The position numbers and the translations under genes were made by a program. Positions 26,278 through 30,876 of a stretch of 64,000 bases of DNA are shown piece after piece (position 1 is the first letter of the stretch; each line of letters opens with the position of its first letter). Origin of the DNA: Escherichia phage A5-4; sequence record OP744025; one strand, written 5' to 3'. The notes below the pieces were generated by a model that had not been told where the DNA came from, searched no databases, and saw only the letters and a program-made list of their open reading frames with translations.

Positions 26278-26733
26278 TTACCCCTGTTTAAGCTTAAAAG
26301 ATTTAAAGGCTTCGATAAAGTCCATTTCTTTTTGCGTGTATTTGTGGTCAATTGTATCAGAGAAAAGAGGGCAACGACCATCAACCAACTTCACATCCCA
26401 CAGATGTTGAGGGAGAATAAATGCAATGGCTGTAAGTGCACCATTCAAAGAATCATTCTCCTCGCAGAAAAATGCGTAAGGAATCTTCTCTATGTTTGGA
26501 GCTAAAAATCCTTCTGCAAAATTAAGCATCTTCGATTGATAGCCTCCGTTCAACAAGATCATTGTTTGGTCTTTGCTTTGCCACTGATCTACAAGGTTGT
26601 ATCTGTCATCATATCGATCGGCATAGGCAAATCCATAATGACCTACAAGGTTTGCTGCTGCATGTGCTGCTTGGATACCTGCTTGGATTCCCATCATGTA
26701 GCTGTTTACCAATACGTACATCCGAGTTTTCAA
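26278..26733 (-). CDS. hypothetical protein
   Basis: ORF track. Confidence 0.55.
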   Translation of the reverse strand: MKTRMYVLVNSYMMGIQAGIQAAHAAANLVGHYGFAYADRYDDRYNLVDQWQSKDQTMILLNGGYQSKMLNFAEGFLAPNIEKIPYAFFCEENDSLNGALTAIAFILPQHLWDVKLVDGRCPLFSDTIDHKYTQKEMDFIEAFKSFKLKQG

Positions 26734-27050
26734 TTCTTACCTCCAAAAATTCGTTTTGCAAACTTTTCATTACCAATCGTTAGATTATAAACAACCATAG
26801 TTGAATAAACAATCCACGCAAGAGCATAAAACAAAATCAAGAAAGGCCACCCTACAAACCAGAATACAGTCATTATTAACCAACCTAGCATCAGGAGTTT
26901 ATAATTAACATTTCCGTGATTTAAAGGGTCGAGTAAGTTACTGTTTTCTGGCAAAGGGATACGAAACCCGCCCTGGCGAAGCTTGATTAACAAGAACCAA
27001 GCGGCAGAACTTATAATGCAACATAAAATATACGTTAATAAACTTGTCAT
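26730..27050 (-). CDS. membrane protein, tandem paralog 1
   Basis: Shares WFLLIKLRQ.GF.IP.P motif with the adjacent 27047 gene. Confidence 0.55.
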   Translation of the reverse strand: MTSLLTYILCCIISSAAWFLLIKLRQGGFRIPLPENSNLLDPLNHGNVNYKLLMLGWLIMTVFWFVGWPFLILFYALAWIVYSTMVVYNLTIGNEKFAKRIFGGKN

Positions 27051-27376
27051 TTTTTAACCCCAAAGATCTTAGTTAGTAATTTATCATTCCCTATAGTAAG
27101 GCCACATAAACTTTTTATACCGAACACCAAGTACGACCCAATTGTAACACAGATAATAATTGGGTAAACAAGATACCAGAAGAATGTTGCACATAGCCAA
27201 CCAACCATGACCATACGTAAATTTACATTTTCATTGTTCAGGGGTTCTAGGATATACAGGTCTTCACTATCCTTGGGGAAGGGGATGTTGAACCCCTTCT
27301 GCCGTAATTTGATCAATAAGAACCAAAGTGGACAACTGATCAAACAACCTATTAAATAACCTTCAACCATTTTCAC
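27047..27376 (-). CDS. membrane protein, tandem paralog 2
   Basis: See paralog 1. Confidence 0.55.
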   Translation of the reverse strand: MKMVEGYLIGCLISCPLWFLLIKLRQKGFNIPFPKDSEDLYILEPLNNENVNLRMVMVGWLCATFFWYLVYPIIICVTIGSYLVFGIKSLCGLTIGNDKLLTKIFGVKK

Positions 27377-28613
27377 TCTCCTTCAACTTGTCAAGGTATT
27401 GTGTAACGTATCTTACTTTTACATTTCGGATTCTGCTCTTGATCTCATTTGGACGTCCCGCGAATTTTTCAGAAATCTCTTTACTTTCTTTTGAGATTGC
27501 AACACTGTTCTGGATAATCCCTGCCAGTGCTGAGAATAATACCAAAGGCTGAGTGTAACTGTCAAACATTTTTTCAGGACCACGACCACGAGAATCACAG
27601 ATGCAAGCATCAATGAATTCAGAAAGGAATGCTTGGTCCTTTTCACCACGTAAGGCTACTAACAAGTCATAAACTTTCTTCGGCTTCATTTCTTTGATAC
27701 GGTGGAGTCGCGTATGATGCTCAGTCACAGCTAAAGCCAACTTCTTCCAACTATTGGGGACACCAAAGCGATCACAAACTTGTTCAGTTAACTTGATACC
27801 GTGCTCTTCGTGACCGTGCAGTTTACCCGTTACCCAGTAAATACATTTACCTAAGTCGTGACACAGAACTGCCCACTTCACAGCTTCACTTGCACGAGTC
27901 GCCTGGGCATAATCCATGCAAAGTAAAGTGTGAACAAATGCATCACCTTCAGGATGGTGCTCCTTGGGTTGAACAACATCGTATAAATCCACAAGCTCAG
28001 GAAATTCTCCCAGTTGAGTCAACATACGGATCATTACCGAAGGTTTATTCATTTCTGACTGATCACTAAAGCATTTCTTAATCTCTGCAAATTTACGCTC
28101 TTTTGGAAGTGCACTTAAGTCTACATTTTGGCACATTCCCCAAGTGTCATGATCAATTGTAAACTCACCGCCGTATCGGGCGTGTAGTCTGGCTAATCGG
28201 TATACACGTAAAGGGTCTTCGATAAATGCTTTAGTGGATACACAACGTAACCGACTATTTTCAATATCAAGTACACCACCACAAGGGTCAATAATTTCAC
28301 CCGTGGAAAGATCCTTGGCAATAGCATTAATGGTCAAATCTCTTCGCATCAGATCTTGTTCGATTGTAACGTCTGGAGAGAACACAACCTCGAAGTCGTG
28401 ATAACCAGGGCCTGTTGATCTTTCTGTCCGAGCAAGAGCGTACTCTTCTTTGGTGTCTGGTTCAAGGTACACAGGGAAAGCTGCACCAACCTTAGTGAAT
28501 CCTTTTTCAATCATCTCTTCGTGGGTCGCACCAACAACCACGTAGTCTCGATCCTTACTTTCAACGCCCATTAGTTCATCACGAACTGCTCCACCTACCA
28601 AGTAAACTTTCAT
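27363..28613 (-). CDS. cca: tRNA nucleotidyltransferase (CCA-adding enzyme) with HD domain
   Basis: N-terminus MKVYLVGGAVRDELMG..DRDYVVVG matches bacterial Cca; HD motif LCHDLGK; start set at internal Met with RBS gaggag. Confidence 0.8.
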   Translation of the reverse strand: MKVYLVGGAVRDELMGVESKDRDYVVVGATHEEMIEKGFTKVGAAFPVYLEPDTKEEYALARTERSTGPGYHDFEVVFSPDVTIEQDLMRRDLTINAIAKDLSTGEIIDPCGGVLDIENSRLRCVSTKAFIEDPLRVYRLARLHARYGGEFTIDHDTWGMCQNVDLSALPKERKFAEIKKCFSDQSEMNKPSVMIRMLTQLGEFPELVDLYDVVQPKEHHPEGDAFVHTLLCMDYAQATRASEAVKWAVLCHDLGKCIYWVTGKLHGHEEHGIKLTEQVCDRFGVPNSWKKLALAVTEHHTRLHRIKEMKPKKVYDLLVALRGEKDQAFLSEFIDACICDSRGRGPEKMFDSYTQPLVLFSALAGIIQNSVAISKESKEISEKFAGRPNEIKSRIRNVKVRYVTQYLDKLKESENG

Positions 28614-28875
28614 ACTCTTTCTCCTCTTAAGTTTAAAGACCAATCTTTTATTTCTTCTTTCCAGTTTGTATTTCTCTCAATGTCTTGCTTTTGACCACGA
28701 AGATAGTTGATGATCTCAAGCGGGTCTTGCTTAACAAAAGAAATATTATCGATCGGACACTCAACTAACTTAAGCATCCTTTCAAAACGATTATACTCAT
28801 CTTCTGACTTTGATGCAACAGGAATAACATCGTAATCTTCAAGATTATTGAGAGTTTCAAGAGTGACCTTCATCT
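28610..28875 (-). CDS. hypothetical protein
   Basis: Internal Met of track ORF 28610..28939; ATGA coupling to cca. Confidence 0.45.
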
Positions 28876-28993: not shown

Positions 28994-29029
28994 AAAAAAA
29001 AAAAAAAAAAGGCCACCCGAAGGTGACCT
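28994..29029 (-). terminator. intrinsic terminator (hairpin then about 17-nt T run on minus strand)
   Basis: ggccaccc gaag gtgacc hairpin 29011-29029 next to A17 on the plus strand; downstream of the stop of gene 29036..29545. Confidence 0.55.
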
Positions 29030-29035
29030 TTAAAT

Positions 29036-29545
29036 TTAAGGGTGAATCCAGTAAAAAGGTTTTGTTAAACCAAGTTTACCTTTTTTATCCCAAATAAAAT
29101 AACCATATGCTGCACCATCTGTTTTACCATCGTCAGTAAAAGAAGGTCGCTTAGATAAAGTAACTAAGTGATCAACAGGGTATTGCTTCCAGAACTCAAC
29201 ACGTTTGGTACTCTCAAGGAAACCTAAACGAAGAAGCATGATCACTACATCAGCATCCTTGTGCGCTTTTTCTACAAACTCTTGAGCTAAATTGTAAGGT
29301 GGATTAGTTAACACACAATCTACCTTATTGTATTTAGTTGCAAGATAATCAACACCTTCTTGAATCTCTCCCCAGGCTGAACCAATTGGCATTTCATTAT
29401 AAAAACTTCCAGAGGCTCTGCAAGGTTCCAGATAAGTCCAATCCTGACGGATTGGAACTAAATTCAAGAAAGCATCTACTGCCCATTTCGGAGTTTCATA
29501 GCGATCATTTTCACGGCGCTCTGCTTTAGGTTTCAATGCTGCCAC
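29036..29545 (-). CDS. putative N6-adenine-type methyltransferase (NPPY motif)
   Basis: Motifs EPCRASGSF (SAM-binding-like) and TNPPY (catalytic motif IV). Confidence 0.5.
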   Translation of the reverse strand: MAALKPKAERRENDRYETPKWAVDAFLNLVPIRQDWTYLEPCRASGSFYNEMPIGSAWGEIQEGVDYLATKYNKVDCVLTNPPYNLAQEFVEKAHKDADVVIMLLRLGFLESTKRVEFWKQYPVDHLVTLSKRPSFTDDGKTDGAAYGYFIWDKKGKLGLTKPFYWIHP

Positions 29546-29547
29546 TC

Positions 29548-30393
29548 TTATTTGCCCCCTTCTTTCGCCGCAGTGATGATCTGTTCAATTAACTCGTCAC
29601 GATAATAAACGTACTGTTCAACACCGAAACATTCCGCAATCTCGTCTAGTTCGTCGAGGTTGTACTCGTCAAAGTCTCGTGGGTTAAGAGTAAAGATGTT
29701 GAATTTTTTGGCGTAGCCTTCGTCGAGGACGATTTCAAATTCTCCCTCTCCGATTTCCTTCGCATCATCAACATCACTCGATTCGATTGACCCTTCAACC
29801 TTAATCCCCCCTGTATTTTGTTGATCGGCTTCCATTTGCTTTTTAATTGCTTCATCTTCAGCGGTCAAACGGGCTTGCATCTGAGAGGAAGTGAAGTAAA
29901 TTTCGCCAGCACGATCAAACAGTTCAACGAGTTCATCTTCTGTCATAACACCCTTGTACAGATCGTAGTATTTCTCTTTGAACAGGTCTTTGTAGAAATC
30001 GCTACGTTTAAATACCAGCGCCGAGTCACCACCCATACTCATCTGAACGTTGTGGAACATATAATGAGAACCTGGACGACAAATTCGAACATGACCAGAT
30101 AAGAAGATCATTGTTGCAGCACTTGCCACTTCACCAATGCCGTGTGTCACAACAGTCGCCTTAGCTTCAGAGATCGCTGTCATGTACATATCTGCGATAT
30201 CACAATAACCACCGCAAGAAGTAATGTATAGATTTACAATATCACCTTCTGGTGCTGAACGAATCAGATCAACAGCCTCAATATGTGCTTCAGGTGAGTT
30301 GTGCAGATCGGTAACATAGATACGCCAATCGTTAGAAGTTACTGGAGATACCCAAATGTTTTTTGCTGGACCATTCATTACGATTTCTTCCAT
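29548..30393 (-). CDS. ClpP-like serine peptidase with acidic C-terminal tail
   Basis: ClpP-like segments NLYITSCGG, GEVASAATMIFLSG, HYMFHNVQ. Confidence 0.45.
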   Translation of the reverse strand: MEEIVMNGPAKNIWVSPVTSNDWRIYVTDLHNSPEAHIEAVDLIRSAPEGDIVNLYITSCGGYCDIADMYMTAISEAKATVVTHGIGEVASAATMIFLSGHVRICRPGSHYMFHNVQMSMGGDSALVFKRSDFYKDLFKEKYYDLYKGVMTEDELVELFDRAGEIYFTSSQMQARLTAEDEAIKKQMEADQQNTGGIKVEGSIESSDVDDAKEIGEGEFEIVLDEGYAKKFNIFTLNPRDFDEYNLDELDEIAECFGVEQYVYYRDELIEQIITAAKEGGK

Positions 30394-30405: not shown

Positions 30406-30876
30406 TTAGCTGATTAAAGTACGGATGCGGGTAGCGTTTTGCAGAACCCAGTCTACTACGATAGAATGGTCAGAGTCAACAATTACTTCATGATGACGTT
30501 TGAACATATCAAGAATCTTTGCTGCTTCGGCAGTATAAAGTGCCGCACGATCTAAAAAGATAATCTGCTCTTTAAGTTCTTCTGTAATCGGACATAACTT
30601 ACTTGGGACCTTGATGGCTGACAAATGTTCTACCAACTCTTTTCGAGTAGAGAACATAATATCAACCTCCTGATCGATACTAAGAGAGCCTAAGAATAAG
30701 CGAGAAAACCATCCACGATACTCATCGTTGTTTTTACGCAAAGTCTTAATTCCAAATATTAACTCTTCGAACAGGGCTGTTGCAATTTCTTCAATACGAT
30801 CAGGAACAATAGCCCCACAATTTTTCAATTCCATCAGTTTACGATGATCAACTGTTGCGTACATACCCTTATCCAT
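30406..30876 (-). CDS. hypothetical protein
   Basis: ORF track. Confidence 0.55.
   Translation of the reverse strand: MDKGMYATVDHRKLMELKNCGAIVPDRIEEIATALFEELIFGIKTLRKNNDEYRGWFSRLFLGSLSIDQEVDIMFSTRKELVEHLSAIKVPSKLCPITEELKEQIIFLDRAALYTAEAAKILDMFKRHHEVIVDSDHSIVVDWVLQNATRIRTLIS

What the first reader, a model, noticed from the sequence alone, without database searches (positions are those of the whole stretch)
29036..30393. Small NPPY-motif methyltransferase next to a ClpP-like peptidase
Gene 29036..29545 has EPCRASGSF and TNPPY motifs in only 169 aa, consistent with a compact N6-adenine (or N4-cytosine) methyltransferase. Its neighbour 29548..30393 has ClpP-like catalytic segments and a long acidic C-terminal tail, yet sits in a metabolic rather than a head-morphogenesis context. 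The methyltransferase could relate to the GATC cluster near 59047 if it has Dam-like specificity.
Basis: partly seen in the sequence, partly recalled or inferred. Interest (0 to 1): 0.4.

Follow-up and report, generated by a model that had tools for sequence, protein, structure and literature searches.

The report
Phage Dam-like methylase beside ClpP-like peptidase
Two adjacent phage genes encode a very small DNA adenine methylase, whose close relative is already shown to methylate GATC, and a ClpP-type protease that is not the capsid protease and has no known job; both are already annotated in related phages, so the finding is mostly ordinary.

Summary
The window is a Septuagintavirus-like E. 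coli myophage (Vequintavirinae), 95-98% identical to LTH01, A73, W70 and UPEC06. Both genes lie on the minus strand and end a transcription unit.

Gene 29036..29545 (169 aa) is a methyltransferase catalytic core with motifs in M.TaqI order and no target-recognition domain. It is 61% identical, and syntenic, to the Bas51 (phage WalterGehring) N6-adenine methyltransferase. Nanopore data for Bas51 show that enzyme methylates GATC: 1405 modified GATC sites in wild type against 35 in a T83P mutant. The three residues mutated in Bas51 loss-of-function escapers are conserved here as D66, D76 and T80.

Gene 29548..30393 (281 aa) has a ClpP fold with invariant Ser91 and His114. Glu164 replaces the catalytic Asp. 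An acidic linker and a small folded C-terminal domain of unknown type follow. The related phage W70 has a separate capsid protease, and this protein was absent from W70 virions. Its family is widespread in phages, including T5, and its function is unknown.

Both genes are already annotated in GenBank relatives. Interest is low to moderate.

The parts
29036..29545 (-). 169-aa N6-adenine DNA methyltransferase without a target-recognition domain (GTG start). Motif X 'YETP' is at residues 16-19. Motif I 'LEPCRASGSF' spans 29402..29428. Motif IV 'NPPY' spans 29294..29305. Motif VIII 'RPSF' is at residues 133-136.
29863..30393 (-). ClpP-fold catalytic core of the 281-aa peptidase (residues 1-177). 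Codons: Ser91 at 30121..30123, His114 at 30052..30054, Glu164 at 29902..29904.
   Evidence: Pfam CLP_protease, 3.9e-8. PHROG 5410, 2.4e-77. Foldseek hits are all ClpP, with target-normalised TM-score 0.6-0.69. S91 and H114 are invariant in 20 homologs. E164 aligns to the catalytic Asp of ClpP.
29749..29862 (-). Acidic linker (residues 178-215). It begins with the end of a long helix; residues 195-215 are predicted disordered. Its length varies strongly among homologs.
   Evidence: pLDDT below 50 for residues 195-215. The linker carries 11 D/E against 4 K/R. The alignment shows large indels here.
29551..29748 (-). Small acidic C-terminal domain (residues 216-281), made of a beta-hairpin and three helices. 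No family could be assigned.
   Evidence: pLDDT 82-91. G, K, DF and E positions are conserved. There is no significant PDB or Pfam match; Rho_N reaches only E=0.0034, in one member.
29546..29566 (-). Gene junction. The ClpP-like stop codon TAA (29548..29550) is followed after 2 nt by the methylase GTG start. A GGGGG Shine-Dalgarno sequence lies inside the ClpP-like 3' end, which suggests coupled translation.
   Evidence: Minus-strand read AAGAAGGGGGCAAATAAGAGTG.
28998..29031 (-). Intrinsic terminator immediately after the methylase stop codon (stem AAAGGTCACC-TTCG-GGTGGCCTTT followed by a T-run). It ends the transcription unit. A TTGACT-16-TATAAT promoter follows at 28992->28965.
   Evidence: sequence
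30406..30876 (-). Upstream 156-aa ORF (PHROG 7224, unknown function). It precedes the ClpP-like gene in several genera and is fused to it in the Salmonella phage SSBI34 annotation.
59047..59095 (.). Cluster of five GATC sites in the AT-rich divergent intergenic region 58944..59310. This is a candidate substrate or regulatory target of the methylase; the link is not shown.

Best explanation
The two genes are the last two cistrons of a minus-strand early/middle operon of a Septuagintavirus-like phage.

(1) The 169-aa protein is a SAM-dependent DNA N6-adenine methyltransferase consisting of the catalytic Rossmann core only. It binds SAM through motifs X, I and III (D66). It flips the target adenine into the NPPY pocket (N81-Y84), probably against F136 of the RPSF loop. 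It most likely methylates GATC on replicating phage DNA, and on any other DNA in the cell. This would be needed because host Dam cannot keep pace with phage replication. Sequence recognition must come from loops of the core and the basic N-terminal arm, since no separate recognition domain exists; this step is inferred.

(2) The 281-aa protein is an active ClpP-fold serine peptidase with Ser91, His114 and Glu164. It probably forms a ring. It is made together with the metabolic genes and is not the capsid maturation protease. Most residues of the pocket where ClpX and ClpA dock on bacterial ClpP are polar or charged here, so it probably works without those host unfoldases. The acidic C-terminal domain probably recruits a substrate or a partner. 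The substrates are unknown.

The adjacency of the two genes reflects conserved Vequintavirinae gene order. It is not evidence of a demonstrated functional couple.
For: Identity of the phage.

Methylase:
- PHROG 799, 3e-63.
- The model is confident and its fold matches M.TaqI, ErmC' and type I HsdM.
- M.TaqI-like order of motifs X, I and IV.
- T18, P19, P41, N81, P82, P83, R133, P134, S135 and F136 are invariant across 27 homologs down to 39% identity.
- The ortholog in Bas51 is 61% identical over the full length and shows the same order, ClpP-like gene then methylase.
- Published nanopore data for Bas51: wild type has 1405 m6A sites at GATC, the T83P mutant has 35.
- The Bas51 escape mutations D69G, D79G and T83P correspond to D66, D76 and T80 here, all conserved.
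- ClaI digestion of the Certrevirus CB7 is consistent with GATC methylation.
- Vequintavirinae are very sensitive to the restriction-modification (RM) systems tested in that study, which argues against promiscuous adenine methylation.
- GATC is not avoided in the window: 403 sites, observed/expected 1.12.

Peptidase:
- Pfam, PHROG and PDB profile hits and fold.
- S91 and H114 are invariant; E164 sits on the catalytic Asp column.
- W70 has a separate virion-associated capsid maturation protease, and this protein is absent from the virion proteome.
- The same gene sits in a metabolic or early context in T5, next to dnk.
- Positions equivalent to the E. coli ClpP docking-pocket residues Y60, F82, I90 and L114 are N, E, H and R here. 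The list of pocket residues and the E. coli sequence come from my own knowledge.

Operon structure.
Against: - Specificity is inferred from an ortholog at 61% identity. Methyltransferase specificity can shift at that distance, and nothing was measured for this phage.
- The fold alone cannot separate DNA from rRNA m6A enzymes. ErmC' and METTL5 score as high as M.TaqI, and several neighbouring genes are tRNA-related.
- No Pfam or NCBIfam model reaches threshold for the methylase.
- For the peptidase, no activity, oligomeric state or substrate is known for any family member. The T5-like homolog in BF23 is described as of unknown function and was found in virions at low level.
- The third triad residue varies in the wider family: E, Q, D and N. 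Catalytic competence is therefore not certain.
- The docking-pocket argument rests on a low-identity alignment.
Confidence: 0.72

Rival explanations
1. The small methyltransferase acts on RNA (tRNA or rRNA m6A), or on protein glutamine, rather than on DNA. This would fit the tRNA-repair flavour of the neighbourhood.
Against: A point mutation in the Bas51 ortholog removes GATC m6A from phage DNA. The best sequence-profile hits are DNA methyltransferases: DpnA, M.TaqI and PacII. An additional RNA activity is not excluded.
Confidence: 0.07
2. The methyltransferase is a DNA adenine methylase with a different specificity, or with relaxed specificity like the non-specific T1-Dam-like enzymes. In that case it would not be GATC-specific in this phage.
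For: It has no target-recognition domain. It is only 61% identical to the characterised ortholog, with substitutions in the loop after RPSF (TDDGK here, QSNGR in the ortholog). It shows weak similarity to PF05869 and T1 Dam (hhalign 70%, E 3.9e-5).
Against: The Bas51 methylation logo is a clean GATC. Vequintavirinae remain highly sensitive to the restriction-modification systems tested in the BASEL study. Most putative contact segments are conserved. A GATC cluster is conserved in the regulatory intergenic region.
Confidence: 0.15
3. The ClpP-like protein is a morphogenetic (prohead or scaffold) protease encoded away from the structural module.
For: It matches PHROG families labelled head maturation protease (phrog_1684 4.7e-17, phrog_94 1.6e-11) and NF045542 weakly. 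The BF23 homolog was detected in virions at low abundance.
Against: W70 has a dedicated capsid maturation protease (phrog_1530) in the structural module, and it is present in virions. The ClpP-like protein is not among the 28 virion proteins. NF045542 scores 31 bits against a cutoff of 120. The gene is co-transcribed with nucleotide-metabolism genes.
Confidence: 0.08
4. The ClpP-like protein co-opts host Clp machinery. It would either dock ClpX or ClpA, or stack on a host ClpP ring as Listeria ClpP1 does on ClpP2, and so redirect ATP-dependent proteolysis during infection.
For: The best sequence matches in the PDB are ClpP1-type subunits from Listeria and Pseudomonas. The T5 homolog has Asn at the third triad position, as Listeria ClpP1 does (the Listeria fact is from my own knowledge). 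Database annotations read 'ATP-dependent protease'.
Against: Positions equivalent to the ClpX/ClpA docking pocket are mostly polar or charged. The N-terminal region is unlike ClpP axial loops. There are no experimental data.
Confidence: 0.15

Closest known systems
N6-adenine methyltransferase of Escherichia phage WalterGehring (Bas51), bas51_0176 (PLoS Biol 2025, PMC12548924)
   Same: It is 61% identical over the full length and has the same architecture without a target-recognition domain. It holds the same position directly downstream of the ClpP-like gene. The residues hit by loss-of-function mutations are conserved (D69/D79/T83 there, D66/D76/T80 here).
   Different: It is 8 aa longer, comes from a different genus (Vequintavirus against Septuagintavirus-like), and has substitutions in the loop after RPSF. 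GATC specificity and retron triggering were shown only for Bas51.
M.TaqI catalytic domain (gamma-class N6-adenine DNA methyltransferase, PDB 1AQI/2IBS)
   Different: M.TaqI has a C-terminal target-recognition domain of about 180 aa and a longer region between motifs I and IV. It recognises TCGA. The protein here has no such domain.
T1 Dam / HP1 Dam family (Pfam PF05869, TIGR01712)
   Same: These are small phage adenine methyltransferases of about 170-240 aa without a separate recognition domain, and several are GATC-specific. hhalign finds collinear similarity from NPPY to motif VIII (70% probability).
   Different: The protein scores below the family thresholds (14 bits against 28.1; 13.4 against 97). 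The N-terminal half does not align.
E. coli Dam / T4 Dam (alpha class, Pfam PF02086)
   Same: The likely target (GATC) and product (m6A) are the same.
   Different: There is no detectable sequence relationship (no PF02086 hit at E<=0.1). The motif order differs, and Dam has a dedicated DNA-binding domain. The two are functional analogues, not homologues.
Bacterial ClpP (MEROPS S14), e.g. E. coli ClpP, Listeria ClpP1
   Same: The fold is shared, with target-normalised TM-score up to 0.69. The catalytic Ser and His and the Gly-rich handle segment are present.
   Different: Identity is only 14-24%. Glu replaces the catalytic Asp. The docking-pocket positions are not hydrophobic. The N-terminus is unlike ClpP. 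There is an extra acidic C-terminal extension of about 100 aa. Scores fall far below the NCBIfam ClpP cutoffs.
Phage 'ATP-dependent Clp protease' family (PHROG 5410/1827), e.g. T5 T5p041, BF23 ORF45, Bas51 bas51_0177
   Same: The family is the same (2.4e-77 to phrog_5410). Members sit in a non-structural, metabolic or early gene context, and their function is unknown.
   Different: The T5-type proteins are about 200 aa, lack the C-terminal domain, and have Asn at the third triad position.

Membership tests
Gamma-class (M.TaqI/Eco57I-like) N6-adenine DNA methyltransferases | Linear motif order X - I - IV - VIII with an (N/D)PP(Y/F) catalytic motif | tested here: met
   YETP at 16-19, LEPCRASGSF at 39-48, NPPY at 81-84, RPSF at 133-136. 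The profile aligns residues 15-89 to M.TaqI 20-112.
Gamma-class (M.TaqI/Eco57I-like) N6-adenine DNA methyltransferases | Class I Rossmann SAM-methyltransferase fold | tested here: met
Gamma-class (M.TaqI/Eco57I-like) N6-adenine DNA methyltransferases | C-terminal target-recognition domain | tested here: not met
   The protein ends about 30 residues after motif VIII. All 169 aa belong to the catalytic core.
Gamma-class (M.TaqI/Eco57I-like) N6-adenine DNA methyltransferases | Pfam PF07669 (Eco57I) gathering score | tested here: not met
   13.2 bits against 25.3.
Orthologs of the Bas51 GATC methyltransferase (PHROG 799) | Full-length sequence similarity and family HMM match | tested here: met
   61% identity, BLASTP E 8e-78; phrog_799 3e-63.
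Orthologs of the Bas51 GATC methyltransferase (PHROG 799) | Conserved genomic position, immediately downstream of the ClpP-like gene | tested here: met
   Seen in Bas48, 49, 51, 52, 53, 55, 56, 57 and 59, and in ABPH49. In KNP2 an HNH insert lies between the two genes.
Orthologs of the Bas51 GATC methyltransferase (PHROG 799) | Conservation of the residues whose mutation abolishes activity (D69, D79, T83) | tested here: met
   D66, D76 and T80 here; each is at least 90% conserved in the family.
Orthologs of the Bas51 GATC methyltransferase (PHROG 799) | N6-methylation of adenine in GATC | not testable with these tools
   This needs native sequencing or DpnI/MboI digestion of this phage's DNA.
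T1 Dam-like (Pfam PF05869 / TIGR01712) | Score above the curated cutoffs | tested here: not met
   14.0 bits against 28.1; 13.4 against 97. hhalign to T1 Dam reaches only 70% probability over 64 columns.
Dam (alpha class, Pfam PF02086) | Sequence match to MethyltransfD12 | tested here: not met
   No hit at E<=0.1.
ClpP / MEROPS S14 | Pfam CLP_protease gathering score | tested here: met
   33.8 bits against 20.2.
ClpP / MEROPS S14 | Ser-His-Asp catalytic triad | tested here: inconclusive
   Ser91 and His114 are invariant. The Asp position holds Glu164 here, and D, Q or N in other phage members. The geometry was not measured.
ClpP / MEROPS S14 | NCBIfam ClpP equivalog or subfamily cutoffs | tested here: not met
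   13-29 bits against 228-308.
ClpP / MEROPS S14 | Stacked heptameric rings, and a hydrophobic pocket for the IGF/LGF loops of ClpX/ClpA | tested here: inconclusive
   Only a monomer was modelled. The columns aligned to Y60, F82, I90 and L114 hold N, E, H and R, on a low-identity alignment.
ClpP-related head maturation proteases (NF045542) | Score above the cutoff, and location or role in the capsid module | tested here: not met
   31.3 bits against 120. The gene lies among metabolic genes. W70 has a separate virion protease, and this protein is absent from the W70 virion proteome.

The most novel reading that the evidence does not exclude
The ClpP-like protein could be a phage-made ring peptidase that works independently of the host unfoldases, or that forms hybrid rings with host ClpP. 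Its acidic C-terminal domain would capture specific host proteins, such as defence or DNA-metabolism factors, for destruction early in infection. Its conserved pairing with the GATC methylase would then reflect a joint takeover module. A second, smaller novelty is that a 169-aa methyltransferase core reads GATC with no recognition domain, which would be a new structural solution for sequence recognition.
Probability: 0.15. Interest if true: 0.6.

Novelty: new member of a known kind. Interest (0 to 1): 0.25.

Why it matters
The practical value is in annotation and prediction. This phage very probably carries fully methylated GATC. That affects its sensitivity to DpnI-type and DpnII-type restriction, can trigger retrons that sense msDNA methylation (as shown for Bas51), and may control the GATC-rich divergent regulatory region. 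The open question is the ClpP-like peptidase. It belongs to a family found in over a thousand phage genomes, including T5 and ICP1, always outside the capsid module, and no function has ever been assigned. The Vequintavirinae version with its extra acidic domain would be a tractable entry point. The minimal methylase is also a candidate for learning how GATC can be read without a recognition domain.

Tried and rejected
1. I considered that phi92-like phages replace the ClpP-like gene with an HslV-like peptidase at the same locus. This was rejected: the VEcB 'peptidase HslV family' protein is a PhoH-like ATPase, so those phages have the methylase without any peptidase.
2. Membership in T1-Dam PF05869, Eco57I, MTS or EcoRI_methylase: all scores are sub-threshold, including for 10 distant family representatives.
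3. The Rho_N/HeH assignment of the C-terminal domain is not supported. It reaches E=0.0034 in one of 13 members. The profile search against the PDB gave only chance hits to antibody light chains.
4. A search for a second methylase in the window (PCQ or (D/N/S)PP(Y/F/W/H) motifs in ORFs of at least 100 aa) found none.
5. Literature searches for a function of phage ClpP-like proteins found only the statement 'function currently unknown'.
6. GATC avoidance or enrichment as evidence for specificity was uninformative (observed/expected 1.12).
7. The library-wide profile search showed a very large family (18,278 cluster representatives). They are almost all stand-alone proteins of 155-260 aa, so no informative domain fusions turned up.

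Full report
**What the window is.** The 2.4 kb around the finding is 95-98% identical to five E. coli myophages of about 140 kb: vB_EcoM-LTH01, A73, W70, UPEC06 and A7_1. These are classified in Vequintavirinae. A73, W70 and A7_1 belong to the recently described genus Septuagintavirus (PMC11370258). In those GenBank records the two genes are already annotated. The first is 'DNA N-6-adenine methyltransferase' or 'DNA methyltransferase'. The second is 'putative ATP-dependent protease subunit / putative ClpP'. The window's ClpP-like protein is 100% identical to the LTH01 protein, and the methylase is 99.4% identical.

**Observation.** Both ORFs exist at the stated coordinates, on the minus strand.
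- The ClpP-like stop codon (TAA, 29548-29550) is separated by 2 nt from the methylase GTG start. A GGGGG Shine-Dalgarno sequence lies inside the upstream gene.
- Directly after the methylase stop comes a strong intrinsic terminator (29031->29008 plus a T-run). A TTGACT-16-TATAAT promoter for the next gene follows.
- The pair therefore closes a transcription unit that also contains NrdD, NrdG, a DprA-like protein and two unknown ORFs. A CCA-adding enzyme lies just downstream.

**The methyltransferase: fold and family.**
- Pfam and NCBIfam give only sub-threshold hits around NPPY: Dam PF05869 at 14 bits, Eco57I at 13 bits, TIGR01712 at 13 bits. PHROG 799 'DNA methyltransferase' matches at 3e-63.
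- The family is very large. A profile search found 18,278 cluster representatives at E<=1e-3, almost all stand-alone proteins of 155-260 aa. No Pfam model covers it.
- An alignment of 27 homologs down to 39% identity shows invariant T18, P19, P41, N81, P82, P83, R133, P134, S135, F136, G140, D143 and Y147.
- AlphaFold gives a confident model (pLDDT 91.6) of a single Rossmann domain.
- A profile search of PDB sequences aligns residues 15-89 with M.TaqI residues 20-112. This covers motif X (ETP), motif I (LEPxxxxGxF) and motif IV (NPPY).
- The protein is thus a gamma-type amino-methyltransferase core with no target-recognition domain.
- It is not related to E. coli or T4 Dam, since PF02086 gives no hit. 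It is only marginally similar to T1 Dam (hhalign 70%, 64 columns).

**The methyltransferase: the experimental ortholog.** The decisive evidence is published. A 2025 PLoS Biology paper (PMC12548924) identified the 'N6 adenine methyltransferase' of BASEL phage Bas51 as the trigger of two retrons.
- Native nanopore sequencing gave a GATC logo.
- The counts were 1405 GATC, 509 GTAC and 576 other m6A sites in wild type, against 35, 511 and 349 in a T83P mutant.
- I traced Bas51 to Escherichia phage WalterGehring (MZ501111). Its bas51_0176 is the only gene with that annotation at this locus, and it lies directly downstream of bas51_0177, 'ClpP-like protease'.
- The window protein is 61% identical to it over the full length.
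- The three escape mutations (D69G, D79G, T83P) fall on residues conserved here as D66, D76 and T80.

Two further observations bear on specificity.
- ClaI digestion of the Certrevirus CB7 was reported as consistent with Dam-type methylation, although host Dam was not excluded.
- Vequintavirinae are 'exceptionally susceptible' to restriction-modification (RM) systems (PMC8594841). This argues against non-specific adenine methylation.

I therefore conclude that this is very probably a Dam-like (GATC) DNA methylase by function. It belongs to a different family from Dam and lacks a recognition domain. How it reads GATC is not known. I infer that the basic N-terminal arm, the loop after strand 5 and the RPSF loop take part.

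**GATC in the window.**
- GATC is not avoided: 403 sites, observed/expected 1.12 by a Markov model.
- The cluster at 59047-59092 is real. By density alone it is only marginally improbable (P about 0.07).
- It lies in a 367-bp, 27.5% GC divergent intergenic region between the leftward operons and a rightward block of small ORFs and tRNAs.
- Certrevirus relatives keep a GATC cluster there, with six sites and some site turnover. Conserved direct repeats and TTGACA boxes lie next to it.
- A methylation-sensitive promoter or origin element is plausible but untested.

**The ClpP-like peptidase: what is shown.**
- Pfam CLP_protease is above threshold, and PHROG 5410 'ATP-dependent protease' matches at 2.4e-77.
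- All structural matches are ClpP, with target-normalised TM-score 0.6-0.69.
- Among 20 homologs at 31-58% identity, Ser91 and His114 are invariant.
- Profile alignment to P. aeruginosa ClpP1, and a multiple alignment with E. coli ClpP, place Glu164 on the catalytic Asp column. The E. coli sequence was supplied from memory; its Ser111, His136 and Asp185 numbering checked out.
- Other phage members carry D, Q or N at that position. T5 has N.
- Residues 178-281 are strongly acidic. Residues 195-215 are predicted disordered.
- Residues 216-277 form a confident small domain of a beta-hairpin and three helices. It has no significant match in the PDB or Pfam.

**The ClpP-like peptidase: what it is not, and what is unknown.**
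- It is not the capsid protease. W70 has a gp21-like maturation protease (W70_136) in its structural module, and that protein is detected in virions. The ClpP-like protein is absent from the list of 28 virion proteins.
- Homologs occur in 1138 phage records. These include T5, where the gene lies next to dnk in the early region, and ICP1.
- For BF23 the authors state that the function is unknown.
- Columns aligned to the hydrophobic ClpX/ClpA docking-pocket residues of E. coli ClpP are mostly polar or charged in the phage proteins. The label 'ATP-dependent' is therefore unsupported.
- My best guess is an autonomous ring peptidase whose acidic domain recruits substrates. This is inference, and the confidence in any specific biological role is low.

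**Are the two genes a functional pair?**
- The order ClpP-like then methylase is conserved in Vequintavirus, Septuagintavirus, Certrevirus, Mydovirus (with an HNH insertion) and an Acinetobacter member.
- However, phi92-like phages carry the methylase without the peptidase, and T5 carries the peptidase without the methylase.
- The simplest reading is conserved gene order within a highly syntenic subfamily.

**Verdict.** Both genes are already annotated in relatives, and the methylase's activity has been demonstrated for an ortholog. The unresolved parts are the role of the ClpP-like family and how GATC is recognised without a recognition domain. These are real questions but are not specific to this window. 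Interest is 0.25.

Noticed in passing
window 58944..59310: A divergent, 27.5% GC intergenic region holds the 5-GATC cluster, two copies of TTATGAATGAAATGAATAA, and TTGACA-type promoter boxes. The equivalent region of Certrevirus phages CR9, P7_Pc and F1M1E keeps a GATC cluster (6 sites) with site turnover. It is a candidate methylation-sensitive promoter or origin element.
   Followed up: partly
window 30406..30876 (minus strand); P0158 of Salmonella phage SSBI34: The 156-aa PHROG 7224 ORF directly upstream of the ClpP-like gene is fused to it in the SSBI34 annotation (448 aa). It precedes the ClpP-like gene in KNP2 and ABPH49 but is absent in Vequintavirus. This could mark a functional partner or be a sequencing or annotation artefact.
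   Followed up: partly
L012 (T5 T5p041), L014 (KNP2), P0159, window residue E164: The third catalytic position of phage ClpP-like proteins varies: E, Q, D and N. Ser and His are invariant. T5 has Asn, as Listeria ClpP1 does.
   Followed up: partly
Bas51 data, PMC12548924 supplement S4: About 510 m6A calls at GTAC in Bas51 are unaffected by the methylase mutation. This could be a second modification activity or a base-caller artefact. No second NPPY- or PCQ-type ORF was found in this window.
   Followed up: no
L013 2228..3031 (Escherichia phage VEcB JR328_gp055): This gene is annotated 'peptidase HslV family', but it is a PhoH-like ATPase by Pfam. The misleading label comes from phrog_1040.
   Followed up: yes
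window 26278..26733 (minus strand) and 27363..28643 (minus strand): A 151-aa ORF with a weak PTH2 (peptidyl-tRNA hydrolase) hit (E=0.011) lies near the CCA-adding/HD-domain enzyme. Five tRNA genes sit at 61369..63124. Together they suggest a tRNA maintenance theme in this region.
   Followed up: no
window 26730..27376 (minus strand): Two tandem paralogous small membrane-protein ORFs of 106 and 109 aa share the motif 'WFLLIKLRQ-GF-IP-P'.
   Followed up: no
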